From positions 6,073 through 70,072 of the forward strand of contig JAEIOE010000003.1 of assembly GCA_016342455.1 (NCBI GenBank): 64,000 nt of DNA, in the 5' to 3' direction. Below the pieces are notes generated by a model. It was not told the DNA's origin, searched no databases, and was given only the letters and a program-made list of their open reading frames with translations. Below, one piece after another: positions 334 to 37,174 of this stretch; the first letter of the stretch is position 1, and each line of letters starts with the position of its first letter. Position numbers and translations under genes: made by a program. Source of the DNA: Mycoplasmatota bacterium. Lineage in GTDB: Bacteria; Bacillota_I; Bacilli_A; Izemoplasmatales; Hujiaoplasmataceae.

Positions 334-783
334 TTAAGGACGTGTTTGAACTCCTAATAACGCGATAGGTAGACCAATTTCTTCCCATCTTGAATCGAAT
401 CTTGAAAAATCACCAAATATGTAAACATCGTTAATAATATTGCCGCTAAAAGCTTCATTACCAATATCAGTTATGTAAGCACCAATTCCTACACTTAGTA
501 AGTTGTTGTCTCTAAATGCACTTTCACCAACATGCATACATCCATTTTTAAGAGAAATATTATTGTTTAATGAATTACTTGCAAAAGCAAAACTTCCAAT
601 ACTAATTACAGAAGAAGGTATAAGTATTTCTAAAATACTATTATCATAAAATGCAGAATTACCAATTGTTACTAAAGTTTCAGGTAATGTTACCTCAGTT
701 AAACCTTTAGATCTAAATGCATCGCCACCAATTTCAGTTACTGTTAATCCGCCTATACTATTTGGTTTAGTAACAAATGACAA
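334..783 (-). pseudogene. BspA/TpLRR-type leucine-rich repeat protein, probably a 5'-truncated fragment
   Basis: Repeated (T/S)IGxxAF motifs (TEIGGDAF, TIGNSAF, SIGSFAF, HVGESAF, DIGNEAF). TTG start with no RBS, directly abutting the upstream gene's terminator; no signal peptide. Confidence 0.55.
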
Positions 784-1892: not shown

Positions 1893-2786
1893 TTAAGTCT
1901 CCAATATTCCATAATTTATTAAGAACATATATACGATAAAGTTAGGTATGGCAAATGAGTAAATATCATCAGATTGTAAGCCCCAAGTATTCACTCCTAA
2001 AAGATTTCCATCTACATCAACTAATGCACCACCACTAGATCCTTCATCAATTTGTGCATTATGATAAATAACATCATAATCCACGTTTTGAATGGACTCG
2101 ATACTAAAGTATTCACCAAAGGTAACGATATCATTTACCTCTAAAGGATTTCCACAGGCCATTACTAATTCGCCTGGAGTAAATTTATAGTAAAGTCTTT
2201 GATAGATATCAATGATTGTGATTTCAGTTCTTTCAGCTTTCAAAAACCTAATTACAGCTAAATCAATATCCGCATCACTAACAACTACTTCACATTCACT
2301 AAATTCAGGGTCGCCATAGGCTTTTAGTTCATAATCAACTAAGTACTCTTCTGGGTCTATTACATGATAATTCGTAATTGCATAATAGTATTCTGTATCT
2401 TCCATAAAAATAAATCCTGAGCCTGTACTAATGCCAACTTCTCTTCTCTCTGTCTCTGTAGACCAAGGAACTATTTTTAATTCTTCATAGAGAGTTACTA
2501 TTAGTTCTATATTTGCATGACGAACATAATCTTGAGTGTTGAATAACACGTCATTATAGTCATCTATGCTTTCAAGACTATACGTATCAGATACATATTG
2601 TGGATAACTACTGTAATCTTCACTTTCATAAGTGATAGTTCCATTAACTAGTGTTGGTAAGGTTGTTGTGATAGGTAAATCTGTTGTGGTATTGAAACCA
2701 AAATAGAAAAGTTGATCACAGCTTATCAAAACTGGTGTTAATAAAACGATTAGCAGTAGTAGTAATGTTTTTTTGAGTTTCATCAT
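1893..2786 (-). CDS. Trypsin-like (S1C) serine protease lipoprotein without PDZ domain
   Basis: Lipobox LISC; catalytic triad motifs TNYHV, DLAVI, GSSGG. Confidence 0.9.
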   Translation of the reverse strand: MMKLKKTLLLLLIVLLTPVLISCDQLFYFGFNTTTDLPITTTLPTLVNGTITYESEDYSSYPQYVSDTYSLESIDDYNDVLFNTQDYVRHANIELIVTLYEELKIVPWSTETERREVGISTGSGFIFMEDTEYYYAITNYHVIDPEEYLVDYELKAYGDPEFSECEVVVSDADIDLAVIRFLKAERTEITIIDIYQRLYYKFTPGELVMACGNPLEVNDIVTFGEYFSIESIQNVDYDVIYHNAQIDEGSSGGALVDVDGNLLGVNTWGLQSDDIYSFAIPNFIVYMFLINYGILET

Positions 2787-2939
2787 ATCACCTACTATTT
2801 ATACGGATATTATACTATATTTATTGCTAAAAGCTTAAAATTTCACTGAAAAAACACACATTTTTCATGTTTTCACCTATTATGATATATAATATATTAT
2901 AATAAATAGAATTATAAGTATTTATAAGGGGGAGAAAAC

Positions 2940-5900
2940 ATGACGACAGATATGGATTTTGGAATGTATTTCAATATTGCATTTTTATCAATACTTGGAC
3001 TCGGAATACTATTCGGGTTCATCAAGGGATTTAAAAAATCTTTATGGAGCTTTTTAGTTACCTTAATATTTTTTGCCTTTTTTTTCCTAACAATAGATCG
3101 AGTAGTTAATGTATTATGGACTATTAACATGCCGTTCTTAGGAGGGCTTTTAGCTAATGTTAACACTGAATTAGAAAGTGTAACATCATTATTTGAAGCC
3201 CTGCCGATTTTGTTAGGCGCGTATTTACCTGGAGAATTTGCGGCTACCGCAACGAATGCGAACTTATTGGAGTTTATCACTTCTATTTCTTTGTTTGTCG
3301 TTAAGATAGTCTATACGATTCTTTATTTTACAGTAATTCAAGTACTATATCGTTTGATTCTTTGGATACTTAGGATGATTATAGTTCCATCAAAGAAGAA
3401 AACAGATAAATATAAATCGAAGAACCGTCTACTCGGTTCTGTATTTGGTTTATTACAAGGTGGAATCAGTGTATACCTTACTTTGATTATATTTGGGGGG
3501 ATTATTAGTATTGCATCATCTGTAGCTAGTATCGTACCTAATGCCAACCCAACGCCAGTAAGACATATCGAATATCGAGAAGAATTTAGACAACCAACTG
3601 CATCTATCATTCAAATGGCAGCGATTGCGTTACCAGATGGTGGTAACTTAGATGATGCAATGGATTTATTAGAGGGAATGATTGAAGGTTATGAAACTAA
3701 TATTTTAGTAACATATCAAAATACAATCACCATCACAGATCCATATGATCCAGAAGGAGAGATGCCTTTAAATCTATATCTATTTGATTCTGTGTTATCG
3801 ATGAATTATCAAGAGGAACAAATAGCATTTAGAGCGGAATTAGATGTGTTAACTCAAGTTGCAGCTAACGTGATTAATTCCGATTTCATGGAATCAGGAG
3901 ACGTTGGCGACCTTACAGGAGAAGAAGTAAGAGCGGTTTTTACCGATTTAGGGAAATCGCATCTTATTACATCCATTATACCTTTAGCGGTGGAAGTTGC
4001 TTCAGAAGCTTTTGAGGTTGACTTAGAATTACCTTTAGATGAGCTATACGAAATCGAATGGGACATTGAAATCATGCAACTAGGTGAAGTGGCAGCTAGC
4101 GCTTTAGATATCGTTAATGCAGCAGGAGTTTTTAATGGAAGCTTTGAATTAGATACGATTGTCTTAGATGGTGATGAGGTAGAACAACTATTCGTAAGTC
4201 TTGGTCAAAGTGAATTAGTTACTTTAGCAGCTTTCGTAGCTATCGAACCTATACTTGAAATTGCAGGAGAAGGAGTTTCTGCTTTTATTACTGTTCCAAC
4301 TGACTTAGACTGGGCAGCAGAATTCGCAGCTATTGGAGCTTTGGCAGGAGAAGTATTAAATTCTGGTTTAACAGTTGGTGCGGTTAATTCTGGGGATATA
4401 GGTGCTATATTACCAATCCTTGCCAATATTGACTTTACTGTTTTACTAGATTCTAAAATTATCACAAACGCTATGATTAATATCCTAAGCGGTCAAACAT
4501 CAATTGATATTTCTGAATTTATTACCATTCCAGATGGAATTCAATGGCTAAATTTAGAGGTTGATGGTGAAACTGTTTATGGTGAACTATATAATATTTT
4601 AATGGCTATTAACGCCTTAGCTAAATCAGCTGGCAATATTGATTTTAATGATTTTCAAAATTTATCATTAAATACTATTGCTCAATTCACAGCTGATGAT
4701 ATCAACGCTTTGTTTGAATCGAAAATCTTGGTAGCGACAATCACTTCCTATTTAACTGATTTAGATTTAGGGGATGGTTTTACAATTATAATGCCAGACT
4801 CTGCCTTTGATGAAGATGGATATATTAAGAAAACAGAGCTTCAAAATGTCGTTAACGCTGTATTTATGCTTGTTAATGAACTAGCTTGTCCAGTAGATAA
4901 AGTAGCTTGTCAAGACCTAGGTGTTGATATTGACTTAATATTTACTCTGGATGGTGAAGACTTAGATACTTTACTAGCATCTGATGTATTAGCTGCTTCA
5001 GCAGGTAATTTAGTGCTAGAACTAGGTGGAGACATGTTAACTGTACCAGGTTCTGCACTAGTAGAAATATTTGTTGATGATGTTGCTAGAGATGTTGTAA
5101 GTAGAGCAGAGATTAAAGCTGCTTTCCTAGCTATATCAACACTTGGTATTTCAAGTATTGATAATTTAGCAATAGACCCATCAATCCTGACTAACCTAGC
5201 TGTAGATGGACAACCAACTGTATTAGACTCTACAAAAGCAGATAAGTTGTTTGGTTCTAAGATATTAAATGCTACACTATCATCATATTTATTTGATTTT
5301 GCTACAGGTGCTGAATCATTTATTGTTGTTCCTTATTTCGCTGAAAACAATTCAACTGAAATAAGAGTAATTGACCCAATTGATTCAACTGAATATATTT
5401 CTGAAGATGAACTTACAAACATACTTCAAGCTGTACTTGTTCTAGATATTACTGATTTTGAGAATATCGATCAATTAGATATCGCAAGTATACTTGCTGA
5501 TGTAGATGTATTATTAGATTCATCTATTCTTCACGCAACTATTTCAAAAATGTTAATTGATATGGATGATATTGTTGCTGTTCCTTTAAATGACCAAGCT
5601 GGAGATCCGCTTAAAATTACAGTGGGTACTGGCGTTACGGAATCAACATACATCGCTAAAATTGAATTGGAAAATGTATTTGATGCATTATCAGTATTAA
5701 ATATTACAGATATTGAAGATGTAGCAATTGATTTAACTATATTAGAAAATTTAGCAGTTGAAGGAGAACCTACTGTATTAGATACAGCTAAATCAACTAG
5801 ATTATTCTCTTCATCAATTATTAACGCTACTTTAGCGAAATACTTACTTGATTTTACTGGTGGAGCAGAAGCTTTAGTTGTTGTTCCATATGAAGATCAA

Positions 5901-8900
5901 GATGGAACTACAATTAGATTTACAGATGCTGCAGATGGCACTGAATATATTGTGGAGTCTGAATTAACAAATATTTTAAAAGCTGTCCTTGTTTTAGATA
6001 TAACAGACTTTGAAAATATCGAAAATATTGATATTGGAGAAATACTTTCTAATGTATCTACTCTTCTTGATTCAGCGATATTACACGCAACTGTTTCAAA
6101 ACAATTACTTGATTTAGATACAGTAATAGTAGTTCCTACTAGTAATGAATTAGGAGACCCAGTTAAAGTTATAACAGGTCCAGTTGGTAATGAAACTACA
6201 TTTATCGAAAAAGCTGAATTAGAGGCTGTTTTCGATGCTTTATCTGTGCTACAAATTACTGATATTGCCGATGTAGCTATTGACTTAACCATCCTTGAAG
6301 AATTAGCAGTTGAAGGTCAACCTACTGTTTTAGACACAAATAAATCAGATACGTTATTTGCCTCGGCTGTAATTAACGCAACCTTATCAAAATTCTTAAT
6401 TGATTTCTCAGAAGGTGACTCGGCAATATTATCTGTACCTTATGAAGATCAAAATACTGTAGTTATAAGAGTTGTTGACCCTGTAGATGGTGTTGAAATG
6501 ATATCGCAAGCAGAGTTAACAAACATCCTAAAAGCAGTACTTGCTTTAGATATTACTGATTTTGAAAATATCGATAATATAAATATAGATGTAATCTTAT
6601 CAAATGTTTCTGTTTTACTGGATTCAGCAATATTACACGCAACTATTTCTAAACAATTAATGGACTTAGATACGGTTATCGTTGTTCCAACTAATAACGA
6701 ATTAGGCGATCCTGTTAAATTAGTAACTGGACCTCTAGCAAATGAAACCACCTTTATTGAAAAAGCAGAATTAGAAGCTGTATTCGATGCTTTAACAGTA
6801 TTAGGTATCGATGATATAAACAACGTAACTATGGATATGACTATTATTGGTAATTTAGCTGAAGATGGTGACGATACTGCCTTAGATATGCTAAAAGCAG
6901 ATATCTTATTCTCATCAGCTGTTATCAACGCTACCTTATCAAAATATATTATGGACTTCTCAGCAGGAGATGATCCTTTCTTAGTAGTACCGGATAATGC
7001 TCAAGATGGAACTGTTATTACAGTTACAGATCCTGTTGATTCCATTACTGTAATTGCAGAATTAGAGTTAACAAATGTATTAAAAGCAGTACTGTTACTA
7101 GATTTACAATCATTCGATTCAGTAGAAAGCTTAGACCTTAATACTATTTTAGGAAATGTTTCTGCTATCTTAGATTCAAGTATCATGCATGCATCGATAT
7201 CAAAACAATTCCTTGATTTAGGAGATGGTATTGTAACGATTCCAACGCATCACGAAAACGATGACGCTTTAATAATCACTCAAGGTACAGTTGATTTTAT
7301 CAACCGTTTAGAACTAGAACATACCTTTGAGGCCTTAGAAGTATTAGGAATGAGTGACATTTCAAATATGTCAGTAGATATTACAAAGATATTAGATAAC
7401 TTAGGTGAAGACTTAGATCCAACTGTTTTAGATAATTCAAAAGCAAATACCTTATTTAGTTCAACTATCTTAAAGGCAACCATTGCTAAATACATCCTAG
7501 ATTTCTCAGAAGGAGCAACACCTATTTTACAGGTTCCACAAATTAATGAATCAAATGTATATATTAAAACACAAAACTCATTTGATACAACAGTATTTAT
7601 TAATCAAGATGAGTTAACTTCTGTTCTTAGTGCTATTCTTGCATTAGGACTAAGTGATTTTGATAATGTAAGTACCCTTTCACTTGATGTAATCATCGCT
7701 AACAAAACAGCGATATTAGATTCAGCTATTTTACAAGCTACTGTATCTCAACAATTAATTGATTTAGGCGGCGGCACCGTAATTATTCCTGAATTTGAGG
7801 ATGATAACGTAACTGAAGTTTTAGTAACAAAAGGTGATGTAGGACAAGAGATGACTTTCATCGCAAGACTTGAATTAGATGCCTTATTCGATGCCTTAGA
7901 AATATTAGATATAGGTAACTTAGATAGTTTTGATGGTGGCGTTGACTTATCGGTATTAAATGAGCCAGGTGCTGTCCATACTTTAGTTCAATCAGCTATT
8001 TTACAAGCTACTATTTCTGCTCAAGTATTAGATTTAGCAGGCGGTACAGGGGAAACATTAGTAATAATCCCTTATCAATCACCTGATGGATTAGTTCAAC
8101 TTAGAAGAACAATAGGTGTCACATCACCAGTTGAAATGATCGAACAATTAGAACTTGAACATCTTATTGATGCATTCGTTGCCTTAGGTTTTACAGATGT
8201 AGATAATTTAGAATTAGCTATCTCAATCAGTACCCTAACAGACAATGCAGCAACAATCTTTGAATCATATACACTTCAAGCAACTGTTTCTAAACAAGTA
8301 CTTGATTTAGAATCAGCTACAGTAGTCATCCCTTATTATGATGATAATGTATTAACACCAACTAGATTAAGAAACATATCAGGTCCAGCCTTAGAAGAAA
8401 CTGAATTTATCGCTAAAGATGAATTAATTGCTTTAATGGCAGCACTTGATGTATTGATACCAGAAGGAGAAGGTGTTGAAAACTTTGATGGAGCAGTAGA
8501 TATTTCATTATTCTATGAAGTAGGACCAAGAACTATTTTAATTAGTTCAAGTATCTTACAAGCTACTATTTCAAAACAAATCGTAGATTTAGGAGCTGCA
8601 ATTGAGGTTCCATTGCAAAGAGATGATTTATCAGTGGTAAGATTAACTGCTGGTACAATTCTAGCTGAACAAAACGAATACTTAGTTGACGATGAAATTC
8701 ATGCTTTATTTGAAGCATTAGAATTATTAGGAATGGATGACATTGGAGACTTCGACGGAAATAACTTAAGCTTTGATATATTCTTACCATCACATGGTTT
8801 AGGATATGAGGATAATCAAAACACATTACTTGCCTCAGCTTGTATTCAAGCTACAGTCTCAAAACAAATCATTGATTTAGCCGTTGGCGATACATTAATT

Positions 8901-10850
8901 ATTCCAACCAAGGATTATAATGATAACGATGTAAGAGTCTTAGTTGGCCTTACAGACTATTTATTAGTTTCTGAGATAAAGAGCCTATTTAACGCTTTAG
9001 ATGTCTTAGAATTAGATATTAACAACTTCTCAGGTGATTTAGGCTTAACGAACTTGTTTGAGTCTTCTAAACCTTTAGAATATGCAGATAATCAAACTAC
9101 AATGTTGGCTAGTGCCATTATGCACGCAACAATGTCTGATCAAATACTTTCCTTATCTAGTGGAGGAGCAATTTTAATTCCAACAACAGATAAAGCAGGA
9201 AATACCTTCACAAAAGTAGTAGAAACAGTTTACTATATCGAAGGTACTGAAATTAAACATTTGTTAAACGCTATGGATGCGATGGGCTTCGGTAGTGCTG
9301 GTAGTTTAGGTGACTTTGGTGGTACTGTTAGTTTTGCAAGTCTTACAGATTCTAACAACCAAGATACGATGTTACTATCTATCATTATGCACTCAACATT
9401 ATCTGATAAGATATTTGATTTATCAGTTGGAGCAACACCTGCAATACTCATTCCAACAACTGACTTTGATGATTTAGCAATTCATGAAACAGTTTCAGGA
9501 AACTATTTTATTGAAAAAATAGAGATTAAAGCCTTAATTGACGCTATGAACGTATTATCACCTGGTGGTGATTTAGATGGCTTTAGCGGAACGATTGGTT
9601 TAACTAGTTTGATGAGTAACGGAGGGTTAAATCCTGATTACCAAACAAACCAAGTATTAGTATTAAGTTCTGCAATTATGCATCGTACGATTACGAACCA
9701 AATCGCAGATTTAGGAGTAACAGCACTTGTCGTTCCTGATACAGATATTGATTCATTCGCAATAGACGCAACTATATCAACTAACTTCTTTATTACCAAA
9801 GCAGAGATTCAACATTTATTCGATGCAATGGATATCTTAGGAGTAGGCGGAGATTTAAGTTCATTTGACGGAACGATAGATTTATCTGCAATCGCTGATG
9901 ATGCTTCACAAAATACATTATTGTTATCAGCTATCATGCACGCTACTTTATCTGATAAGTTAATTGATTCTGCTTTAAATATACCTGATATAGATATTAA
10001 TAGATTAGGTGGAGCAGTAGCACTTAGAGTAACACCTTCTTCAACTGAGTTCATTGAAAAAATTGAACTTAAGAAATTACTAATTGCATTAGATGAAATG
10101 GATATGACTGATTTTGGAGCAATGACTCCATCACTTGGTGTTATTTTCACAAAAGATATGAACGTGATATTAGATTCAGCAATTATGCAAACAACCATTT
10201 CATTCAACTTCTTATCAACAGCGAAAACTTATGACTTAGCTAGCAGTGGAGAATTTATTGTCCCTGAAGGCAAACGCGAGGCTATCGCAGTTGAAACAGT
10301 TGCTAAAGAATGGATTGAAGTTACTGAACTAAAAGCCTTAATCGCTGCTTTAAGTGAATTAGGTATATCTTCATTTGATGTATCTATTGATGGTTCTACT
10401 TTAAACGGTAAGACCGAAGCAGAATTAACAACAATCTTAGCTTCAGCTTCTATGCATTTAACAGCTGAAAATATGATTAAACAAAATGCAAACATTAATA
10501 GTTATGTACCTGATATTACAGGACAAGCAGTAATAATCGACTCACTATATGGGGAAACAGATATTGTAAGCTCTGTTGAGGTGATCAAGTTTATCTTAGC
10601 TATTGATGCATTCGGAGGAAGCCTTGAAGGCGACTTTGATTCATCAGTATTGAGTGGTCTTACAAACGCAGAACAACTTACAGTAATTGCATCAGCAATT
10701 GCAAGATGTAAGATGACTCCTGAATTAGTAACTGCTATGGCACTTAACTTTACTCCTTATGGACCTACAGATTATGAAACATTAGATACAACGCCACCAG
10801 CAACTTGCTTAACGGAAGCTGCTGCAGAAGATGCATTAGCATTATACTAA
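2940..10850 (+). CDS. Giant acidic membrane-anchored repeat protein (2636 aa), CvpA-like N-terminal TM module
   Basis: Uninterrupted ORF with GGGGAG RBS, four N-terminal TM segments, about 24 copies of an LxSxIxxATIS-centred repeat, own terminator. Confidence 0.9.
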   Translation: MTTDMDFGMYFNIAFLSILGLGILFGFIKGFKKSLWSFLVTLIFFAFFFLTIDRVVNVLWTINMPFLGGLLANVNTELESVTSLFEALPILLGAYLPGEFAATATNANLLEFITSISLFVVKIVYTILYFTVIQVLYRLILWILRMIIVPSKKKTDKYKSKNRLLGSVFGLLQGGISVYLTLIIFGGIISIASSVASIVPNANPTPVRHIEYREEFRQPTASIIQMAAIALPDGGNLDDAMDLLEGMIEGYETNILVTYQNTITITDPYDPEGEMPLNLYLFDSVLSMNYQEEQIAFRAELDVLTQVAANVINSDFMESGDVGDLTGEEVRAVFTDLGKSHLITSIIPLAVEVASEAFEVDLELPLDELYEIEWDIEIMQLGEVAASALDIVNAAGVFNGSFELDTIVLDGDEVEQLFVSLGQSELVTLAAFVAIEPILEIAGEGVSAFITVPTDLDWAAEFAAIGALAGEVLNSGLTVGAVNSGDIGAILPILANIDFTVLLDSKIITNAMINILSGQTSIDISEFITIPDGIQWLNLEVDGETVYGELYNILMAINALAKSAGNIDFNDFQNLSLNTIAQFTADDINALFESKILVATITSYLTDLDLGDGFTIIMPDSAFDEDGYIKKTELQNVVNAVFMLVNELACPVDKVACQDLGVDIDLIFTLDGEDLDTLLASDVLAASAGNLVLELGGDMLTVPGSALVEIFVDDVARDVVSRAEIKAAFLAISTLGISSIDNLAIDPSILTNLAVDGQPTVLDSTKADKLFGSKILNATLSSYLFDFATGAESFIVVPYFAENNSTEIRVIDPIDSTEYISEDELTNILQAVLVLDITDFENIDQLDIASILADVDVLLDSSILHATISKMLIDMDDIVAVPLNDQAGDPLKITVGTGVTESTYIAKIELENVFDALSVLNITDIEDVAIDLTILENLAVEGEPTVLDTAKSTRLFSSSIINATLAKYLLDFTGGAEALVVVPYEDQDGTTIRFTDAADGTEYIVESELTNILKAVLVLDITDFENIENIDIGEILSNVSTLLDSAILHATVSKQLLDLDTVIVVPTSNELGDPVKVITGPVGNETTFIEKAELEAVFDALSVLQITDIADVAIDLTILEELAVEGQPTVLDTNKSDTLFASAVINATLSKFLIDFSEGDSAILSVPYEDQNTVVIRVVDPVDGVEMISQAELTNILKAVLALDITDFENIDNINIDVILSNVSVLLDSAILHATISKQLMDLDTVIVVPTNNELGDPVKLVTGPLANETTFIEKAELEAVFDALTVLGIDDINNVTMDMTIIGNLAEDGDDTALDMLKADILFSSAVINATLSKYIMDFSAGDDPFLVVPDNAQDGTVITVTDPVDSITVIAELELTNVLKAVLLLDLQSFDSVESLDLNTILGNVSAILDSSIMHASISKQFLDLGDGIVTIPTHHENDDALIITQGTVDFINRLELEHTFEALEVLGMSDISNMSVDITKILDNLGEDLDPTVLDNSKANTLFSSTILKATIAKYILDFSEGATPILQVPQINESNVYIKTQNSFDTTVFINQDELTSVLSAILALGLSDFDNVSTLSLDVIIANKTAILDSAILQATVSQQLIDLGGGTVIIPEFEDDNVTEVLVTKGDVGQEMTFIARLELDALFDALEILDIGNLDSFDGGVDLSVLNEPGAVHTLVQSAILQATISAQVLDLAGGTGETLVIIPYQSPDGLVQLRRTIGVTSPVEMIEQLELEHLIDAFVALGFTDVDNLELAISISTLTDNAATIFESYTLQATVSKQVLDLESATVVIPYYDDNVLTPTRLRNISGPALEETEFIAKDELIALMAALDVLIPEGEGVENFDGAVDISLFYEVGPRTILISSSILQATISKQIVDLGAAIEVPLQRDDLSVVRLTAGTILAEQNEYLVDDEIHALFEALELLGMDDIGDFDGNNLSFDIFLPSHGLGYEDNQNTLLASACIQATVSKQIIDLAVGDTLIIPTKDYNDNDVRVLVGLTDYLLVSEIKSLFNALDVLELDINNFSGDLGLTNLFESSKPLEYADNQTTMLASAIMHATMSDQILSLSSGGAILIPTTDKAGNTFTKVVETVYYIEGTEIKHLLNAMDAMGFGSAGSLGDFGGTVSFASLTDSNNQDTMLLSIIMHSTLSDKIFDLSVGATPAILIPTTDFDDLAIHETVSGNYFIEKIEIKALIDAMNVLSPGGDLDGFSGTIGLTSLMSNGGLNPDYQTNQVLVLSSAIMHRTITNQIADLGVTALVVPDTDIDSFAIDATISTNFFITKAEIQHLFDAMDILGVGGDLSSFDGTIDLSAIADDASQNTLLLSAIMHATLSDKLIDSALNIPDIDINRLGGAVALRVTPSSTEFIEKIELKKLLIALDEMDMTDFGAMTPSLGVIFTKDMNVILDSAIMQTTISFNFLSTAKTYDLASSGEFIVPEGKREAIAVETVAKEWIEVTELKALIAALSELGISSFDVSIDGSTLNGKTEAELTTILASASMHLTAENMIKQNANINSYVPDITGQAVIIDSLYGETDIVSSVEVIKFILAIDAFGGSLEGDFDSSVLSGLTNAEQLTVIASAIARCKMTPELVTAMALNFTPYGPTDYETLDTTPPATCLTEAAAEDALALY
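5170..7930 (+). repeat. Five higher-order tandem repeats of about 552 bp (184 aa, two basic units each) inside the giant ORF
   Basis: PTVLD-like anchor (..TTAGA) at 5221, 5776, 6328, 6880, 7426 (spacings 555, 552, 552, 546); GATTCAGC at 6069 and 6621. Confidence 0.9.
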
Positions 10851-10866
10851 AATTAAACCTAAAAAT

Positions 10867-10896
10867 AGCGGTGATTTAACAAATCATCGCTTTTTT
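10867..10896 (+). terminator. Intrinsic terminator after giant protein 1
   Basis: AGCGGTGATTT/AAATCATCGCT stem plus T-run. Confidence 0.85.
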
Positions 10897-10973
10897 AATC
10901 GAATTACTATTAAAGAATAAACATATATAGTATAATTGTATATAATAAACAAAATTAAATAAGGAGGAAGATT

Positions 10974-13900
10974 ATGTTTTTAGCATTAGATTTATCATCT
11001 TTGGCCGCGATTAATAATATTTTTTATGTCGTTCTTGTACTAGCTATTTTAGCTGGTTTAGCCCGTGGCTTTAAGAAAACGCTTTTCACTTTAATAACTA
11101 TGGCAATATTCTATGTTGTCTTTTTTGTAACGATCAATCAAGCAGTTGAATTCTTATGGACATTCAATATGCCTTGGTTAGGAGGGATATTATCTCAAGT
11201 GGATCCTAGCTTAGACTCATTCACAACTTTTGAGTCAAGCTTAAATCAGCTTATGCAAGTATTCCTAGGAGATACAGTGGACCTATCTACTAGTTCAGCT
11301 CAAGTGGTAGCCTTAGCTACCGGACTTATAAAGTTCGCGCTTAAAATAGTATGGACACTTGTATACTTTACAGTAATCCTAGTTATTTATAAAATACTAT
11401 GTTGGATTATTGCGGCTATTTTCTTTAAAAAACGAAAAGGTGAAAGCAAAAACCGTGGTTTAGGAGCTGTAATTGGTGTTTTAAATGGTTTAATGGCAGT
11501 CTTTGTAACACTTATCATGTTAGGTGGAATCATGTCTGTTATGGAATCAGCGGCCTCTTTACTAGAAGAAAATGAACCAGCACCATTGAATTATTTACAA
11601 GAGTTTAACCATTCAAGTATGGATAATCCATTTGATGCTTCAATTCCTGTAACGTTTTTAGCAGTAGAAGATAACCCGCTAAGTGAATATGCAGATGGCT
11701 TGAATGATGTTGTTGATGCATATAACAACAATATCTTTGTAAAACTCGCAAATAAGATTACCACAACATCAACAATTAATGAGAACATCGAAGTTCCATT
11801 ACACATTAATTTATTTGATACGGTTTTATCTTTTGACTTTAATGAAAATACGATTGGTATTCGATACGAACTTGCAGTATTTGCAGCTGCAGGAAAAGTT
11901 TTACTAGATTCTGATTACTATATTAGTCAAGAAATAACAGATATTACAGGAGATGACATTAGAGATGTATTCACTAACTTATCTGATTCTGTATTAATTA
12001 CTAGTTTATTACCAGTTGCAATAGAAGTCGCAGCTGATATGTTTGAACAAGACTTACCTATTGACTTAGATGAGTTATATGATATAAACTTTGAAGCAGA
12101 GCTAGCAAGTCTTGGATCTATTGCTGGTGCTTTATTTGATATTATCAATGGCGCTGGATTTATAGGTGGAGATGGAACTGGAACTGCAATTGATGCAGAC
12201 GCAGTAAGAGATGTATTCTTAGATATATCAGGTTCTGAAGTAATTCTTCTTTTAACAGATAATCTATTACTTCCAATGCTTGAAGATCAAGAAGGTGATT
12301 TAGCATCGATTATTACTGTTCCAGATGGATTAGATTTGGAAGCTGAATTTTTAGCTTTAGGTGAAATATTCGCTGAGATATTAGACGCTGATATTGACTT
12401 TGCTGATTTTGAAGATGCTGATGTATCTGTTTTACTAAATGCTGTTAGCCAAATTGACTTAACAGTTCTTCTAGATTCAGAATTAGTTACTGAAGCATTA
12501 ATCAATATCTTAAGTGGTACAGCAGAAATAGAAGGTCTTGATGTTTTAGAAGTTCCAACAGGTATCGTTTGGAAAGATAATGGCGGTGTTGATGGTGAAC
12601 TAAGAAAAATCTTGGTTGCGTTAAACGCTTTAACAGAAGTTGCTAGCGACGTTGATTTTGATAATCTTGATGTAACCCTATTAACAGATATGTCTGACAC
12701 AGTAATAAATGATTTCTTTAGTTCTTATGTAATAAGAGCTACGATATCAAATATAATTTTAACTACTGAACTTGGGGATATTCCTTTAGTTTTTCCTGAC
12801 GAAATATATGATTCGCAAGGATATTTTATTGAATCTGAACTAGGCAATGTAGTAAAAGCAGTTAAACTTATTTTAGGAGCTGCTGGTGAAGACTTTGATA
12901 TCATGGAAGTCTTAAATTTAACAAGTGCAGAGATTGATACTTTGTTAGGCTCAGCTATAATCTCAGCTACAGTAGGGCAGTACTTATTTGACTTAGGAAG
13001 TACAAGTCTCGTTATTCCTAACTATGTTACAGATACTATAGTTGTAGGGTCAACAACCCCAACAATTGTAATCCCTGCTGAGATTAAGAATATTTTATTG
13101 TCTTTACAAGTATTAGATATATCAGACTTAGATACCATGTCCTTTGATGCGACGATTATTAATCAATTAGAAAATACTGCAGAAGATGATATTGATGATA
13201 CAAAAGTTGCTACTTTATTAGGTTCAACTATTATTCACGCAACTATTTCAGATATGATCTTAAGCCTAGGCACAGACAATGGAGGAATACTTACTATTCC
13301 AGACATGGATGTAACTGGAGCTACATTACTATCTACTGTAGCTACATATGAATTTATTTCTGTAACTGAGATAACAAATATGTTAAAAGCACTTTACTCA
13401 ATAGATATAACTGATTTTGATGATATGGATTTTGATGATACAAGCTTACTATTAAACAACTTAAGTAATTTGACAGTGTCATCAATACTTCAAGCAACGA
13501 TTTCTGAACAAATATTAGGATTAGATGGAATCATGACGATACCTGAATTCGATGTAGATAATTCACCAATTCTTATCGCTCAAGGGTCACAAACCTATAT
13601 AGACGAAACTGAGTTAAGTAATTTAGTTGCTGTACTCGATATGTTAAATATTACAGATCCTACAGCTTTAAGTGATACGTTTAATTTGAGTAACTTTGAT
13701 ACAGAAGTAGAACAAAACACATTATTAGCTTCAGCGATTATGCATGCGACTATTTCAGATACATTGACAAGTCTTGGTGCAGGAGTATTAATCATACCTG
13801 AAACTTCAGAAACTGGACTTGTAGATATTCAAGTTGAAAGAGGTAGTTTGGGAAATGAAGTAACATATATTTATGGGTTTGAGATAAAAGCCCTAATTAA

Positions 13901-14942
13901 CGCTTTCGTTGCTATGGGCTTTAATGATCTAACTTCATTTGGCGCTGGTATCGATACAGCAGACTTCTTAGATAATGCAGCTTTAATGCTAGAATCTAGT
14001 TCTTTGCAAGCTACTATTTCAAATATTATACTTACAAGTGACGCTGTAACTGGACTTACACCTTCATTGATTATACCAGATGAAGATCAACTAGCTGTAG
14101 ATATTAGAATAGTGTTGGCAGATGTTACTTATATTTCAAAACTAGAATTAACCGCTTTTATTAATTCGATAAATACACTTGGATTGGACGATTTTGATAC
14201 CTTTAGCTTTGAAGCTTCAGCTATCTTCGCTGTTGGGGACAAAAATGCTTTATTCAATTCAAATATTATGCAAGCAACAGCTTCAAAATACATCCTTGAT
14301 GTAGCAGGTGATGAATCTGCTGGATCAGGAACTTCAGTAATATTGGTTCCAACAACTTTAAGAGAAGATATTACGGTAGCTACAGTTGCTTCAGAACAAA
14401 TAGAAAAAACAGAGTTAATTAGTATATTTAAAGCTTTAGAAACATTAGGAATGAATAATTTCAGTGATGGAATGGATGTTTCAAGTGTTCAAGGATTAAC
14501 TAGACCTGTAATGATTAATGATGTATTAGTAAGTGGTTCTTTCCATGTTACAATTGACAACATGCTAAGAGATAACCCAACATTAGGCTCTCAAATACCT
14601 AATATTGCGAAAGCAACTTATTACAGTCTATTAACAGATATCACTACAAAAGAAGAAGCAGCTGACTTAATCTTCGCGCTGAATATAATCTTAGGCGGCG
14701 GAAACTTCATGACTTCCAATATTAACGTAAATGATATCTTGAATCTTCCAGTAGGAGATAGAGATGAAGTAATTTACTCATTAACAATTAGACAATATAT
14801 TACACCAGGTCTTGAAGCAGAAGATGCATTAGATCCAGGTTATACAATTGATCCATTAACATCTTATGAAGTTACGGATCTAGTGGATCCAGTAATCTTA
14901 ACTTATGCAGCAGCAAAAGCAGCATTAGATTACTTCCATTAA
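10974..14942 (+). CDS. Paralogous acidic membrane-anchored repeat protein (1322 aa)
   Basis: AGGAGG RBS; same TM module (KNRGLGAVIGVLNG vs KNRLLGSVFGLLQG), about 10 SxIxxATIS repeats, similar C-terminal cap. Confidence 0.9.
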   Translation: MFLALDLSSLAAINNIFYVVLVLAILAGLARGFKKTLFTLITMAIFYVVFFVTINQAVEFLWTFNMPWLGGILSQVDPSLDSFTTFESSLNQLMQVFLGDTVDLSTSSAQVVALATGLIKFALKIVWTLVYFTVILVIYKILCWIIAAIFFKKRKGESKNRGLGAVIGVLNGLMAVFVTLIMLGGIMSVMESAASLLEENEPAPLNYLQEFNHSSMDNPFDASIPVTFLAVEDNPLSEYADGLNDVVDAYNNNIFVKLANKITTTSTINENIEVPLHINLFDTVLSFDFNENTIGIRYELAVFAAAGKVLLDSDYYISQEITDITGDDIRDVFTNLSDSVLITSLLPVAIEVAADMFEQDLPIDLDELYDINFEAELASLGSIAGALFDIINGAGFIGGDGTGTAIDADAVRDVFLDISGSEVILLLTDNLLLPMLEDQEGDLASIITVPDGLDLEAEFLALGEIFAEILDADIDFADFEDADVSVLLNAVSQIDLTVLLDSELVTEALINILSGTAEIEGLDVLEVPTGIVWKDNGGVDGELRKILVALNALTEVASDVDFDNLDVTLLTDMSDTVINDFFSSYVIRATISNIILTTELGDIPLVFPDEIYDSQGYFIESELGNVVKAVKLILGAAGEDFDIMEVLNLTSAEIDTLLGSAIISATVGQYLFDLGSTSLVIPNYVTDTIVVGSTTPTIVIPAEIKNILLSLQVLDISDLDTMSFDATIINQLENTAEDDIDDTKVATLLGSTIIHATISDMILSLGTDNGGILTIPDMDVTGATLLSTVATYEFISVTEITNMLKALYSIDITDFDDMDFDDTSLLLNNLSNLTVSSILQATISEQILGLDGIMTIPEFDVDNSPILIAQGSQTYIDETELSNLVAVLDMLNITDPTALSDTFNLSNFDTEVEQNTLLASAIMHATISDTLTSLGAGVLIIPETSETGLVDIQVERGSLGNEVTYIYGFEIKALINAFVAMGFNDLTSFGAGIDTADFLDNAALMLESSSLQATISNIILTSDAVTGLTPSLIIPDEDQLAVDIRIVLADVTYISKLELTAFINSINTLGLDDFDTFSFEASAIFAVGDKNALFNSNIMQATASKYILDVAGDESAGSGTSVILVPTTLREDITVATVASEQIEKTELISIFKALETLGMNNFSDGMDVSSVQGLTRPVMINDVLVSGSFHVTIDNMLRDNPTLGSQIPNIAKATYYSLLTDITTKEEAADLIFALNIILGGGNFMTSNINVNDILNLPVGDRDEVIYSLTIRQYITPGLEAEDALDPGYTIDPLTSYEVTDLVDPVILTYAAAKAALDYFH

Positions 14943-14956
14943 AATAATTTAGATTT

Positions 14957-14989
14957 AGAGGACGAATTTATTTTCGTCCTCTTTTTTTT
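14957..14989 (+). terminator. Intrinsic terminator after giant protein 2
   Basis: AGAGGACGAA/TTCGTCCTCT stem plus T8. Confidence 0.9.
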
Positions 14990-15029
14990 ATGATATAATA
15001 AAATGCTAGAGAAAAATGGAGGACAGTAT

Positions 15030-16754
15030 ATGAAAAAAACACTTTTATTTATAACAATAATTTTATTCGCAATTGTATTTGTTAGTTGTGATTTCTTAAG
15101 TACGACAACTTATTTAACAACTGCTCAAGGAACTACTTTAGAAACGAATAGTGAAGCTACAACAAACACAACTACAACGAATCAAATAACGAATACAACT
15201 ACGAGTCAAACAACTAATGCTACTACGACTCAAACTACAACACAAACGACAACTCAAGCAACGACTTCTCAAAGCACAACACAAGTTACTACCACAGAAG
15301 TTGTCTATGATAGATATCAAACAATAAATTTCTATTCTCTAAATGATTTTCATGGTGGAACTTACTCGGATATCGCCAACTTAGAGGAAATAGGAGCTTT
15401 CTTAAAAGCTGAAAAAGCAAACAGTGAAAACACAGTTATTCTTTCAAATGGAGATATTTTCCAAGGAGCTGCTTTATCTAATTACTATTATGGTAGACCA
15501 ATTGTTGATGTATTTAATAACATAGGTTTTGATGGTTTTGTTATTGGAAATCATGAGTTTGATTGGGGTATTGACAAAATAACGGAATATAATGATGGCT
15601 TAACTGAAAATGGAGAAATGGACTATCCAATTCTCGCAGCCAATATTGTTTATCAAGATACTCAAGAACAAGTAGAAAATACAGTTCCATATATTATAAA
15701 AGAAATGAGCGGGGTCAAAGTAGGAATTATCGGTTTAATTGGAGATGTTATTAACTCCATTTCTGCTTCAAGAGTAGATAATATTGAATTCTTAGATCCT
15801 GCAGATACCATTTATCAATACGCAGAAGAATTAAGAGTAGATGAAGCTTGTGATATTGTAGTAGTATATATTCACAATGGTTCAAGTATTAATAGTGAAG
15901 TCGCTAATTTTTCCGGGAATCATTATGTAGATGCTATCTTTAATGGACATACCCATCAATCAGAAACAGCTTCTGTTTCTAGAAGTAATGGAGGCCTACC
16001 ATTATATTACGCACAAGCAGGTAATAGAGAATCCTCATTATTTGTAGGTATTAGTTTGGTATATGACCATGACCAAGATATGGTCACGAATGGTTCTGTT
16101 ACTAACTATGAATTTGATGATATAGATTATCTATCTGATTCTGAAATCTTCAATATTTTAAATAGCTATATGACAGATACTATTTATACCAATTTTGTGA
16201 CAGAAGAGTTAACAGTTGCTTCCGATTATTATAGTAGATACGATCTAGTTGAATGGGGAGCTACTGTTTTAAGAGACTATGTAGGAATTGATGCAGGAGC
16301 GCTAAATAGCGGCGGATTTAGAAATGGTATTGAATCAGGCATTCTAACAATGGGAGACATGATTGAAATATATCCATTTGATAATTACATTAAAACCTGT
16401 GAAATGACTGGATATGAGTTTTCAAACTTATATGACAATTTATCCGGAGAAGATGTTTACTGGGATCAAGGCGTTTATAAAACGAATGGTACTTTATACA
16501 TTAATGGTGCAGCAGTAGTAAATGAACAAATATATGTAATTGGCGCAGTTGATTATGTCTTTGATAAAACTTATTATGATTTCTTAGATGGCAATAACGT
16601 TACACTTACTACCTATTTAATGAGAGACTTATTAATAGAAGACTTAAGAAACACAGTTGGTAACTTTAATCCAGATAATGGAACGAGCTATCAAGAATTA
16701 TTCACAGTATATGACCCGAATTATTATAGAGAATTAGAACTTTCATTAAGATAA
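15030..16754 (+). CDS. 5'-nucleotidase / bifunctional metallophosphoesterase lipoprotein with Thr/Gln-rich linker
   Basis: GGAGG RBS supports ATG 15030; lipobox FVSC; motifs NDFHG, GDIFQG, GNHEFD, GHTH; C-terminal NSGGFR/IYPFDN substrate domain. Confidence 0.9.
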   Translation: MKKTLLFITIILFAIVFVSCDFLSTTTYLTTAQGTTLETNSEATTNTTTTNQITNTTTSQTTNATTTQTTTQTTTQATTSQSTTQVTTTEVVYDRYQTINFYSLNDFHGGTYSDIANLEEIGAFLKAEKANSENTVILSNGDIFQGAALSNYYYGRPIVDVFNNIGFDGFVIGNHEFDWGIDKITEYNDGLTENGEMDYPILAANIVYQDTQEQVENTVPYIIKEMSGVKVGIIGLIGDVINSISASRVDNIEFLDPADTIYQYAEELRVDEACDIVVVYIHNGSSINSEVANFSGNHYVDAIFNGHTHQSETASVSRSNGGLPLYYAQAGNRESSLFVGISLVYDHDQDMVTNGSVTNYEFDDIDYLSDSEIFNILNSYMTDTIYTNFVTEELTVASDYYSRYDLVEWGATVLRDYVGIDAGALNSGGFRNGIESGILTMGDMIEIYPFDNYIKTCEMTGYEFSNLYDNLSGEDVYWDQGVYKTNGTLYINGAAVVNEQIYVIGAVDYVFDKTYYDFLDGNNVTLTTYLMRDLLIEDLRNTVGNFNPDNGTSYQELFTVYDPNYYRELELSLR

Positions 16755-26571: not shown

Positions 26572-26799
26572 ATGCCAATCTCAATACATTTGGATGAAAT
26601 TCTTAAAAAACAAAAAATAACTTCCAAAGAATTATGCAGTATTATAAGTATAACTGAGGCTAATTTGTCCATATTACGGAGTGGAAAAGCAAAAGCAATA
26701 AGATTTGAAACTTTGGAAAAAATATGTCAAGCTTTAGGATGTAGTCCTGGAGACATACTAAAATATGAAGAAGGTGATAATAATGAAATGGATGACTAA
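26572..26799 (+). CDS. Cro/C1-type HTH regulator (YozG family)
   Basis: SITEANLSILRSGKAKAIRFETLEKIC..L.C.PGDIL. Confidence 0.93.
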   Translation: MPISIHLDEILKKQKITSKELCSIISITEANLSILRSGKAKAIRFETLEKICQALGCSPGDILKYEEGDNNEMDD

Positions 26800-27577
26800 A
26801 GTTTTAATAGTATATCTTTTAGCAGTAAGTACTCTTTGTGCAATATTGCTGTTTTCTAAAATAGAACTAGATAACTATTCCAGTATAACATTTACATTAA
26901 GCCCTGAAGCTTTAACTTATGCTCAAGACAATCAACTTAACGAAGATTATATTGATCCAGTACTTGAGTTTATATCGACTAAAGAACTTACTTTATTAGA
27001 AGAAGGTTATGAAGTTTTATATACAGCAATGTCCACTAATCCATATCTATATGAAAGAAATTGGTCATTATACGTTGAGTATTCTCAGATACCGGATATT
27101 GATTTACAATCTAGCTTATTTAAAGATAATAATGGAGTTTACTATATCTTGGCTCAGTATGATATGCCTTTGTTTGAATTAAATCAAGCAATTACAGGTA
27201 ACTTTATTCATTTTGGATTTTCTGATGAATATCAGGTTTCCAATGTATATTCAAATGTCTATTTTCTTTTAAATGATGAATACACCTTATATCAAACAGC
27301 TAATTCTTATGATTATGACAATAAATTATTTACTATGCCGACTAGCATAGTAGATACAAGTATTGATATTGTCTCCGTAGTTGGATATGTTTTCTTAGAA
27401 ATTCCAGTTGGTAATGATGCAACATTCTTTGAATGTAGTGTTGATATATTTGATGGTACAAATCATAAAGAAGATCCTGGAATAATACTTGGCTTTAATA
27501 AAATTGTATTTGCAGAAAGAGAAGAGTATTACAGTGTAGCTGCAACTTGGATAAAATATAGAAAGGAAATTTCATAA
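26783..27577 (+). CDS. Hypothetical protein with N-terminal signal/TM anchor
   Basis: AGGTGA RBS supports ATG 26783; N-terminal hydrophobic segment. Confidence 0.75.
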   Translation: MKWMTKVLIVYLLAVSTLCAILLFSKIELDNYSSITFTLSPEALTYAQDNQLNEDYIDPVLEFISTKELTLLEEGYEVLYTAMSTNPYLYERNWSLYVEYSQIPDIDLQSSLFKDNNGVYYILAQYDMPLFELNQAITGNFIHFGFSDEYQVSNVYSNVYFLLNDEYTLYQTANSYDYDNKLFTMPTSIVDTSIDIVSVVGYVFLEIPVGNDATFFECSVDIFDGTNHKEDPGIILGFNKIVFAEREEYYSVAATWIKYRKEIS

Positions 27578-36535: not shown

Positions 36536-37174
36536 TTAACTCTCCATATAATCTGATAAAATTTCTTCTATGTTTTGGAACTCTGTAACTCCTAATCTTA
36601 GTGTAGCTAATCGGTATTCTAAGACTTCGTATACCTCATCAAACATCACTAAAACTTCTGGCAAATTTTCTCTCGTATAGCTTCCTCTAAAGTCATTAAT
36701 TCTTTGGTAAGCTAGACCCCTTGTTTCCAATAATCCTTCACGATAAAGAACTATTGTTTCTATCTTTGTTTGAACGCTTGCTAAATCATCCTCTAAGAGA
36801 ACAAATTCGCTATCTTTGATAAGCTGAGCCTTGTCTTTAATTGAAGCTACTAATACTTGGATATTTTCAACTTCAATTAAAATTTCTTGATGGATTGCAA
36901 TCAATTCTAGGCGCTTTTGATTGAACTGAATAATGTCACTTACTCCCTCATCAGAAAGCTCCACTACATAGTATTCTGTATTAGACAAGCTAGTTAATTC
37001 TATATTGTTTATAGACTCACTATCGCTTGAATCATAAGAATAACTTATCGCTTTAAAGTCATTCGATGCTCGAATTAGACTATCCATTAACGATGAATTT
37101 TCAGTACAACTCACAAACATAAATAAAGCCATTACTGTTACAAATAAACTTAAAATCATTTTTCCTTTTTTCAT
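36536..37174 (-). CDS. Helical lipoprotein, unknown function
   Basis: Lipobox FVSC; coiled-coil-like body. Confidence 0.8.
   Translation of the reverse strand: MKKGKMILSLFVTVMALFMFVSCTENSSLMDSLIRASNDFKAISYSYDSSDSESINNIELTSLSNTEYYVVELSDEGVSDIIQFNQKRLELIAIHQEILIEVENIQVLVASIKDKAQLIKDSEFVLLEDDLASVQTKIETIVLYREGLLETRGLAYQRINDFRGSYTRENLPEVLVMFDEVYEVLEYRLATLRLGVTEFQNIEEILSDYMES

What the first reader, a model, noticed from the sequence alone, without database searches (positions are those of the whole stretch)
2940..14942. Tandem pair of giant acidic membrane-anchored solenoid proteins built from an unrecognised ~80-95 aa repeat
Seen: 12 kb encodes two paralogues with the same four-TM anchor, N-terminal domain and C-terminal cap (TDYETLDT...AAAEDALALY vs TSYEVTDL...AAAKAALDYFH). 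They differ mainly in repeat number, about 24 vs about 10 counted by eye. Each repeat reads LxSxI(L/M)xAT(I/V/L)Sxx(L/I)xDL - L.(I/V)P...(Y/F)IxxxE(L/I) - LFxALxxLG(I/L)xD, suggesting helix/beta-hairpin/helix. Both are D/E-rich, K/R-poor and unusually rich in L/I/V/A, and each has its own RBS and terminator. The positive-inside rule (KGFKK, KKKTDKYKSKNR) puts the repeat array outside the cell. I do not recognise the repeat as a named family. Inference: two filaments of defined, different lengths forming a surface scaffold, spacer or hydrophobic-ligand/cation-binding coat in a wall-less cell.
Basis: partly seen in the sequence, partly recalled or inferred. Interest (0 to 1): 0.8.

Follow-up and report, generated by a model that had tools for sequence, protein, structure and literature searches.

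The report
Paired giant CvpA-anchored surface repeat proteins
Two neighbouring genes of a wall-less marine Izemoplasmatales bacterium encode very large acidic proteins, each a four-helix membrane anchor carrying a rod of 22 or 7 copies of an undescribed ~88-residue repeat that most likely projects from the cell surface; they belong to a large, unstudied family whose function is not known.

Summary
Window 2940-10850 and 10974-14942 are intact ORFs of 2636 and 1322 aa. They are paralogues: 37% identity over the first 600 aa and 34% over the last 237 aa. Each has its own RBS and terminator.

A repeat HMM finds 22 and 7 clear copies, not about 24 and 10. AlphaFold2 gives helix, beta-hairpin, helix per repeat (pLDDT 86, pTM 0.68). 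The repeat matches no family in Pfam or NCBIfam and no PDB structure.

An outside location is supported by:
- the positive-inside pattern across 32 homologues;
- K+R content that fits this genome's lipoproteins and not its cytoplasmic proteins;
- a natural chimera that carries the long paralogue's last repeats and tail on a lipoprotein with Flg_new and LRR domains.

- Acidity is a trait of this organism's whole exoproteome, so it is not evidence of cation binding.
- The family also occurs in genomes that keep SEDS cell-wall genes.
- The length classes are old, but lengths vary within each class.

This scan has reported CvpA-anchored giant acidic proteins at least eight times on other DNA. Function is still inferred. 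I rate it a new variant of a known kind, interest 0.5.

The parts
1893..2786 (-). Divergently transcribed lipoprotein with a Trypsin_2 serine-protease domain. It is a conserved neighbour and a possible processing enzyme (that role is inferred).
   Evidence: Pfam PF13365, E 5e-17. The N-terminus ends in a lipobox (LISC). The same neighbour sits upstream of the long gene in three other genomes.
2928..2934 (+). RBS (GGGGGAG) of the long gene. A promoter-like site lies at 2870-2900.
2940..10850 (+). Long paralogue P0001, 2636 aa.
2940..3530 (+). P0001 aa 1-197: four-helix CvpA-like membrane anchor. Cytoplasmic loops are KGFKK and KKKTDKYKSKNR.
   Evidence: Weak Colicin_V match, E 0.065. TM segments. 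Positive-inside pattern.
3642..4706 (+). P0001 aa 235-589: N-terminal ectodomain, alpha/beta then helical. It follows a linker that AlphaFold2 models with low confidence in P0002.
   Evidence: 37% identical to P0002. P0002 model.
4707..10430 (+). P0001 aa 590-2497: 21 repeat units. Units 3-10 alternate A/B, as if a double unit of about 184 aa had been amplified.
10431..10847 (+). P0001 aa 2498-2636: last, degenerate repeat plus the conserved C-terminal tail (TDYETLDTTPP...).
10867..10891 (+). Terminator-like hairpin followed by a T run, after the long gene.
10961..10967 (+). RBS (AAGGAGG) of the short gene. A promoter-like site lies at 10918-10946.
10974..14942 (+). Short paralogue P0002, 1322 aa.
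10974..11564 (+). P0002 aa 1-197: four-helix CvpA-like anchor. Cytoplasmic loops are RGFKK and KKRKGESKNR.
   Evidence: Colicin_V E 0.0039. AlphaFold2 helices 13-31, 33-63, 109-150 and 161-197. Structural match to B. subtilis YshB.
11676..12707 (+). P0002 aa 235-578: N-terminal ectodomain. The linker aa 198-234 before it has pLDDT below 50.
12708..14522 (+). P0002 aa 579-1183: 7 repeat units.
14523..14939 (+). P0002 aa 1184-1322: a marginal eighth repeat plus the conserved helical C-terminal tail.
14957..14982 (+). Terminator-like hairpin followed by a T run, after the short gene.
15030..16754 (+). Lipoprotein 5'-nucleotidase (Metallophos + 5_nucleotid_C). It lies immediately downstream of the short paralogue in every locus examined.
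   Evidence: Pfam. RBS GGAGG before the ATG at 15030. Synteny.

Best explanation
Both genes encode integral membrane proteins. The N-terminal four-helix domain is distantly related to CvpA and sits N-out/C-out. Its fourth helix follows a strongly basic cytoplasmic loop and acts as a signal-anchor, so everything after residue ~197 is exported, presumably by Sec (inferred). The exported part is a flexible ~37-residue linker, a ~350-residue N-domain, a continuous rod of 22 (long) or 7 (short) helix/beta-hairpin/helix repeats, and a conserved terminal module. I read the two proteins as cell-surface fibrils of two length classes. The rod would act as a stalk that holds the conserved distal module away from the membrane, and the pair would contribute to the protein coat of a cell that has no wall. 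Shown here: gene integrity and conservation, paralogy, repeat anatomy, a confidently modelled repeat rod, and no match to described families. Strongly supported but indirect: extracellular location. Inferred only: the coat or stalk role, Sec dependence, and whether the ectodomain stays attached to the anchor.
For: Topology. Across 32 homologues, loops 1 and 3 carry a mean of 2.9 and 4.8 K+R. The 57-residue loop 2 carries 0.2 K+R and 6.4 D+E, and the region after TM4 is acidic.

Composition. The ectodomains have 3.7% and 2.8% K+R. In this genome the mature parts of 94 predicted lipoproteins have median 4.7% (5-95%: 2.3-7.6%), while 1089 TM-free ORFs have 12.7% (9.6-16.9%); only 5 of those 1089 are at or below 4%.

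Natural chimera. P0160 begins with a lipoprotein signal (...LTGC) and carries 11 Flg_new stretches plus BspA-type LRR. It ends with about 490 aa that are 50% identical (E 6e-149) to the last repeats and tail of P0001. It occupies the long-gene slot, upstream of a 1321-aa gene (no Pfam hit; taken as the short paralogue from size and position) and the 5'-nucleotidase gene.

Analogy. Colicin_V-trypsin fusions exist in Actinobacteria (PMC2605481). MarP has four N-terminal TM helices and activates the peptidoglycan hydrolase RipA (PMC12183614). That the fusion class includes MarP, and that RipA is extracytoplasmic, I take from general knowledge.

Structure. AlphaFold2 on P0002:560-1322 gives pLDDT 86.4 and pTM 0.68, with only shallow dips between repeats, which implies a fixed inter-repeat geometry.

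Conservation. The repeat was found in 110 of 151 genomes sampled from the order and in 515 clusters among 1.84 billion representatives. The trypsin | long | short | 5'-NT order persists down to 30% identity. In a tree of the N-terminal 560 aa, the short proteins form one clade of 51 (support 99) nested among long ones.
Against: There is no experimental topology, expression or localisation data. The one sequencing-run search returned a single DNA run that holds 6% of the words, and no RNA run. Both window proteins score below the Pfam Colicin_V cut-off (13.7 and 17.6 bits against 29.3), so the CvpA and MarP analogy rests on remote similarity. Model coordinates could not be read, so rod length and rigidity were not measured. 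The conserved gene order extends to His_Phos, PYNP, HtpG and RNase J, so adjacency to the protease and the nucleotidase may be inherited synteny and not a functional link. Nothing shows what the terminal module binds, if anything. Small residues after TM4 (e.g. SVAS in P0001, SAAS in P0002) could form a signal-peptidase site, which would release the ectodomain from the anchor.
Confidence: 0.6

Rival explanations
1. The ectodomain is cut from the CvpA-like anchor after export, by signal peptidase or by the neighbouring trypsin-like lipoprotein. It then acts as a released matrix or self-assembling coat protein. On this view the anchor is an export or pro-domain and not a permanent tether.
For: Residues 198-234, directly after TM4, are modelled with pLDDT below 50. 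Small residues follow TM4. A Trypsin_2 lipoprotein gene is a conserved divergent neighbour. CvpA-type domains are fused to trypsin domains in Actinobacteria.
Against: No cleavage site was tested. Nearly every full-length relative in hand keeps the anchor, which fits a lasting role. The released protein would have no recognisable wall- or membrane-binding module.
Confidence: 0.17
2. The four-helix module is a working CvpA-type transporter or channel, and the giant ectodomain serves it, for example by capturing or funnelling substrates. This could be linked to the adjacent 5'-nucleotidase and extracellular nucleic-acid scavenging, for which Izemoplasmatales are known.
For: Pfam places Colicin_V in the LysE transporter clan, and E. 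coli CvpA has been proposed to export solutes (bioRxiv 10.1101/563007). A 5'-nucleotidase gene always lies immediately downstream. Izemoplasmatales degrade extracellular DNA (abstracts).
Against: The genome has a separate CvpA gene that passes the Pfam cut-off (contig C50), whereas the giants' anchors are divergent. A strongly acidic rod is a poor direct binder of nucleic acids. The synteny block is much wider than these genes. In another lineage (f7) the homologue lies among unrelated genes.
Confidence: 0.08
3. The repeat array is cytoplasmic: a membrane-tethered internal scaffold or cytoskeleton of a wall-less cell.
For: Wall-less bacteria do use large acidic cytoskeletal proteins (general knowledge). 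The topology has not been measured.
Against: The positive-inside pattern holds in 32 homologues. K+R content lies outside the cytoplasmic distribution, where only 5 of 1089 ORFs are that low. The same repeats and tail occur on a lipoprotein with Flg_new and LRR domains.
Confidence: 0.05

Closest known systems
CvpA / Colicin V production protein family (Pfam PF02674; E. coli CvpA, B. subtilis YshB)
   Same: The N-terminal ~190 aa have four TM helices, and Colicin_V is the best Pfam hit. Six homologues (P0014, P0028, P0029, P0046, P0053, P0054) carry a precomputed PF02674 hit. The predicted structure aligns with YshB (probability 0.94, 21% identity over 168 residues) and with Buchnera CvpA.
   Different: Both window proteins score below the Pfam cut-off. 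Canonical CvpA is about 160-180 aa with no large ectodomain, and the genome has a separate canonical CvpA gene. CvpA's own function is unresolved.
MarP (Rv3671c) and other Colicin_V-trypsin fusions of Actinobacteria
   Same: A four-TM N-terminal module carries a C-terminal domain that acts outside the cytoplasmic membrane. In this window a trypsin-like protease gene lies next to the CvpA-anchored genes instead of being fused to the anchor.
   Different: The exported part here is a 1100-2400-aa non-enzymatic repeat rod, not a protease. That MarP's own anchor is PF02674 is from my memory of domain databases; only the existence of the fusion class was checked.
'CvpA family protein' giants of Acholeplasma-type and gut Bacilli
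   Same: The architecture is the same: a CvpA-like anchor plus a long acidic repeat region, often as a short/long tandem pair. AFDB cluster representative U4KRF9 aligns over the whole model (E 1.6e-8, TM 0.47 by query). The repeat profile detects giant ORFs of 1520-2810 aa in families f15 and f28.
   Different: Identity is only 14-15% to the AFDB hits. BLASTP against the f15 giant is not significant. Earlier notes describe all-helical modules of about 185-200 aa, whereas this repeat is about 88 aa with a beta-hairpin. Gene order here is long then short.
Fibrillar surface proteins and adhesins built from tandem repeats (e.g. Ebh/Embp of staphylococci)
   Same: Giant size, a repeat stalk, a conserved terminal module and a surface location are shared. 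This describes how the protein may work and is not a claim of homology.
   Different: There is no cleaved N-terminal signal peptide, LPXTG motif or wall-binding module, and the repeat is unrelated in sequence. No adhesive function has been demonstrated.

Membership tests
CvpA / Colicin_V (PF02674) | Pfam HMM score at or above the gathering cut-off (29.3 bits) | tested here: not met
   P0001 scores 13.7 bits and P0002 17.6 bits. The six-frame search of the genome finds only the separate gene on C50. Six homologues carry a precomputed PF02674 hit.
CvpA / Colicin_V (PF02674) | Compact membrane domain of about four TM helices | tested here: met
   AlphaFold2 helices 13-31, 33-63, 109-150 and 161-197. 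Hydropathy segments recur in more than 100 relatives.
CvpA / Colicin_V (PF02674) | Structural similarity to bona fide members | tested here: inconclusive
   YshB: probability 0.94, TM 0.40 by hit, E 1.0. Buchnera CvpA: probability 0.60. No CvpA chain appeared among the PDB matches.
MarP-type CvpA-anchored exported proteins | C-terminal domain located outside the cytoplasmic membrane | tested here: inconclusive
   Predicted from the positive-inside pattern, composition and the lipoprotein chimera. Not measured.
MarP-type CvpA-anchored exported proteins | Trypsin-like protease domain fused to the anchor | tested here: not met
   No protease domain in either protein. Trypsin_2 is a separate neighbouring gene.
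Named surface repeats (Flg_new, LRR_5, Big, SLH and others in Pfam/NCBIfam) | Significant profile match of the repeat | tested here: not met
   Whole proteins scanned at E<=1. All 29 units scanned singly at E<=10: no family was hit by more than one unit. PDB profile search: best E 0.08.
S-layer proteins | Recognised anchoring module (SLH or similar) and lattice self-assembly | tested here: not met
   No SLH or similar domain. Self-assembly cannot be tested with these tools.
Gram-positive fibrillar adhesins (Ebh/Embp type) | Cleaved signal peptide plus LPXTG or wall anchor, and demonstrated ligand binding | tested here: not met
   There is an N-terminal polytopic anchor instead, and no LPXTG or C-terminal TM segment. 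Binding cannot be tested here.
Solved protein folds (PDB) | Structural match of the repeat rod | tested here: inconclusive

The most novel reading that the evidence does not exclude
The long/short pair, kept since an early duplication in this family, forms an ordered two-tier coat of rigid rods rooted in CvpA-type membrane modules. This would be a protein exoskeleton or spacer layer that does part of a cell wall's mechanical or barrier work in free-living wall-less Bacilli. The conserved distal modules would make the lateral or ligand contacts.
Probability: 0.12. Interest if true: 0.75.

Novelty: new variant of a known kind. Interest (0 to 1): 0.5.

Why it matters
Free-living wall-less bacteria such as Izemoplasmatales must face sediment pore water with only a membrane and whatever they display on it. 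This gene pair takes up 12 kb of a 2.4-Mb genome. The repeat was found in most genomes sampled from the order, and it belongs to a superfamily of CvpA-anchored giants that no curated resource searched here describes. The pair is therefore a good candidate for a major surface structure of these cells.

The work also yields two practical things. One is a compositional rule for this organism, that exported proteins have about 5% K+R, which can be used to assign location. The other is a natural domain-swap that supports the topology. Cultured relatives exist (PMC8397711, PMC10470597), so localisation and structure can be tested directly. The repeat is also a candidate new fold family for structural study.

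Tried and rejected
- Table 4 (TGA=W) reading: not needed, because both ORFs are open under table 11.
- Tandem Repeats Finder on the DNA: no arrays. The protein repeats are old at the nucleotide level despite 53-72% identity between alternate units 3-10.
- Pfam and NCBIfam on whole proteins, Pfam on single repeats, PDB sequence-profile search: no family for the repeat, N-domain or tail.
- Fold searches of both models against PDB (Foldseek and exhaustive VIA-align), the ESM Atlas and AFDB: only 'CvpA family protein' relatives and CvpA/YshB for the anchor; everything else is at noise level.
- ESM Atlas feature search with a double repeat: no usable hit (one search was a format error).
- Search for sequencing runs: one DNA run holding 6% of the words and no RNA run, so expression could not be examined and read laying was not used.
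- Hypothesis that acidity means cation binding: dropped, because the same bias is seen across the genome's exported proteins.
- Hypothesis that the family tracks wall loss: rejected by the SEDS cross-tabulation.
- Functional link to the 5'-nucleotidase or the protease from synteny alone: not accepted, because the conserved block is much wider.
Full report
**What is there**

Under table 11 the window holds two co-oriented ORFs: 2940-10850 (P0001, 2636 aa) and 10974-14942 (P0002, 1322 aa). Reading TGA as Trp changes nothing. Each gene has a Shine-Dalgarno sequence (GGGGGAG at 2928-2934, AAGGAGG at 10961-10967), a promoter-like site upstream, and a hairpin plus T-run downstream (10867-10891, 14957-14982).

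The proteins are paralogues. The first 600 residues are 37% identical (E 4e-123) and the last 237 are 34% identical (E 5e-24).

**The repeat**

An iterated HMM finds 22 significant copies in P0001 (aa 590-2568). In P0002 it finds 7, plus a marginal one at the C-terminal end. The period is 84-97 aa.

Units 3-10 of P0001 alternate. Alternate units are 53-72% identical and adjacent units 28-41%, as if a double unit of about 184 aa had been amplified. Tandem Repeats Finder sees nothing at the DNA level, so this expansion is not recent. In the 2.43-Mb genome (97.8% complete) the repeat occurs only in these two genes.

**Structure**

I ran AlphaFold2 on P0002:560-1322 with 30 homologues. It gives mean pLDDT 86.4 and pTM 0.68. 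Each unit is a short helix, a 12-residue helix, a beta-hairpin and a 13-residue helix, with only shallow confidence dips between units. I take the high pTM for a 763-residue chain as evidence of fixed inter-repeat packing, meaning a rod and not beads on a string. I could not read the coordinates, so no dimensions are given.

The N-terminal model (pLDDT 73) shows four long membrane helices, a low-confidence linker (aa 198-234) and an alpha/beta-then-helical N-domain.

**Comparison with known families**

- Pfam gives only a sub-threshold Colicin_V (CvpA) match to the anchor, E 0.004 and 0.065. NCBIfam gives nothing.
- No Pfam family is hit by more than one of the 29 units, even at E<=10.
- A profile search of PDB sequences has a best E of 0.08.
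- AFDB fold clusters return only two real hits, both automatically named 'CvpA family protein' (U4KRF9, 1206 aa, E 1.6e-8; A0A7C6Y4S2).
- The anchor model aligns with B. subtilis YshB (probability 0.94) and Buchnera CvpA.

So the anchor is a divergent CvpA-type domain, and the rest has no described family. There is one caveat.

**Location**

Four independent lines point outside the cell.

1. Positive-inside rule. Over 32 homologues, loops 1 and 3 carry 2.9 and 4.8 K+R. The 57-residue loop 2 carries 0.2 K+R, and the region after TM4 is acidic.
2. Composition. In this genome the mature parts of 94 predicted lipoproteins have median K+R 4.7%, against 12.7% for 1089 TM-free ORFs, and only 5 of the latter are at or below 4%. 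The two ectodomains have 3.7% and 2.8%.
3. A natural chimera, P0160. It starts with a lipoprotein signal, carries 11 Flg_new stretches and BspA-type LRR, and ends with about 490 residues that are 50% identical (E 6e-149) to the last repeats and tail of P0001. It sits in the long-gene slot, before a 1321-aa gene (no Pfam hit) that I take to be the short paralogue from its size and position, and the 5'-nucleotidase gene.
4. Analogy. Colicin_V-trypsin fusions exist in Actinobacteria (PMC2605481). MarP has four N-terminal TM helices and activates the peptidoglycan hydrolase RipA (PMC12183614).

It is a trait of the whole exoproteome and therefore no evidence for cation binding.

**Distribution and history**

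All named relatives are 'hypothetical protein' entries from Izemoplasmatales, Mycoplasmatota, Tenericutes, Bacilli or Firmicutes MAGs. The repeat profile finds 515 clusters among 1.84 billion representatives. Almost all full-length ones carry the same four-TM anchor. The repeat is present in 110 of 151 sampled genomes of the order.

At class level I crossed it with the SEDS family (PF01098) as a cell-wall marker.

| Family | Repeat (genomes with a match) | SEDS (genomes with a match) |
|---|---|---|
| f1 | 20/21 | 0/21 |
| f2 | 14/24 | 0/24 |
| f7 | 10/12 | 12/12 |
| f26 | 3/3 | 3/3 |
| f28 | 10/11 | 5/11 |
| f10 | 0/40 | 1/40 |
| f14 | 0/22 | 0/22 |
| f22 | 0/21 | 0/21 |

The f7 genomes reach 3.6 Mb. 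A 1648-aa f7 homologue from a 3.3-Mb genome has the same architecture. The family is therefore not bound to wall loss. The window's own genome does lack SEDS and PBP transpeptidase genes, and it keeps a separate canonical CvpA gene.

Remote relatives in f28 are significant by BLASTP (4e-19). Those in f15 are seen only by the profile, inside giant ORFs.

This scan has already reported CvpA-anchored giant acidic proteins at least eight times on other DNA, often as tandem short/long pairs. The present pair is the Izemoplasmatales branch. It differs in having a shorter, hairpin-containing unit and in running long then short.

**The pair and its neighbours**

The order trypsin-like lipoprotein (divergent) | long | short | 5'-nucleotidase lipoprotein recurs in CP134495 (WC30), JBMNEZ01 and CP076020, down to 30% identity. 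It recurs partly in two more contigs. The window has the same neighbours.

The conserved block runs on through PYNP, HtpG and RNase J, with His_Phos as well in the three other genomes, so I do not treat adjacency as proof of a functional link.

A FastTree of the N-terminal 560 aa puts P0002 in a well-supported clade of 51 proteins, all 1172-1682 aa. That clade is nested among long proteins of 1833-3623 aa, which include P0001. So one early duplication produced a short lineage that has stayed short, while the long lineage varies from 14 to 34 repeats. 'Two defined lengths' is thus true only of classes. Part of the sampling came from a search seeded with P0002, which may inflate the short clade.

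**Interpretation**

The best reading (0.6) is two membrane-anchored, extracellular, rod-like surface proteins of different reach, each presenting a conserved distal module. What they bind or build is unknown.

The alternatives are:
- release of the ectodomain by cleavage after TM4 (0.17);
- a transporter-centred role of the CvpA module linked to nucleotide scavenging (0.08);
- a cytoplasmic scaffold (0.05).

Noticed in passing
whole genome G000 (e.g. window 1893-2786, 15030-16754, 26765-27577, 36536-37174): Exported proteins of this organism are uniformly depleted in Lys and Arg. Median K+R is 4.7% in the mature parts of 94 predicted lipoproteins and 12.7% in cytoplasmic ORFs; D+E is 16.0% and 13.6%. 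This is a strong compositional signature of location, and possibly an adaptation of a wall-less marine cell.
   Followed up: partly
G000 contigs C35:4544-12757, C106:11875-19422, C39:2803-9639, C36:309-7046, C3:1758-7433, C4:18849-23477: The genome encodes many other giant (1500-2700 aa) K/R-poor proteins, several of which begin with lipoprotein or signal-type N-termini. A large share of coding capacity goes to giant surface proteins.
   Followed up: no
L014:101-6365 (ENA contig k141_476735): Here the long paralogue's slot holds a chimera: a lipoprotein signal, Flg_new and BspA-LRR domains, then the last repeats and tail of the long paralogue. A resolvase gene lies directly upstream, which suggests recombination replaced the anchor and most of the rod.
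   Followed up: partly
window 15003-15032: The mechanical ORF for the 5'-nucleotidase starts at 15003. However, the GGAGG RBS and the lipoprotein signal (MKKTLLF...FVSC) point to the ATG at 15030 as the real start. A Thr/Gln-rich low-complexity linker follows the lipobox.
   Followed up: partly
window 334-783 (- strand): A 149-aa ORF with a BspA-type LRR_5 domain, a TTG start and no signal sequence. It may be a fragment of a larger surface-protein gene.
   Followed up: no
G000:C50:37558-38124: A separate, canonical CvpA gene (Colicin_V above the Pfam cut-off) exists elsewhere in the genome. The giants' anchors are therefore extra, diverged copies of the module.
   Followed up: partly
L009:6287-12673 (G233, family f7): The 1648-aa homologue in a 3.3-Mb SEDS-positive genome is a single gene, flanked by an ABC-F ATPase and an ISL3 transposase. 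It is not in the protease/nucleotidase context.
   Followed up: partly
window 4707-4967 (P0001 aa 590-676): The first repeat of the long protein carries an insertion with two cysteines (CPVDKVAC) in an otherwise nearly Cys-free ectodomain. This could be a small disulfide loop.
   Followed up: no
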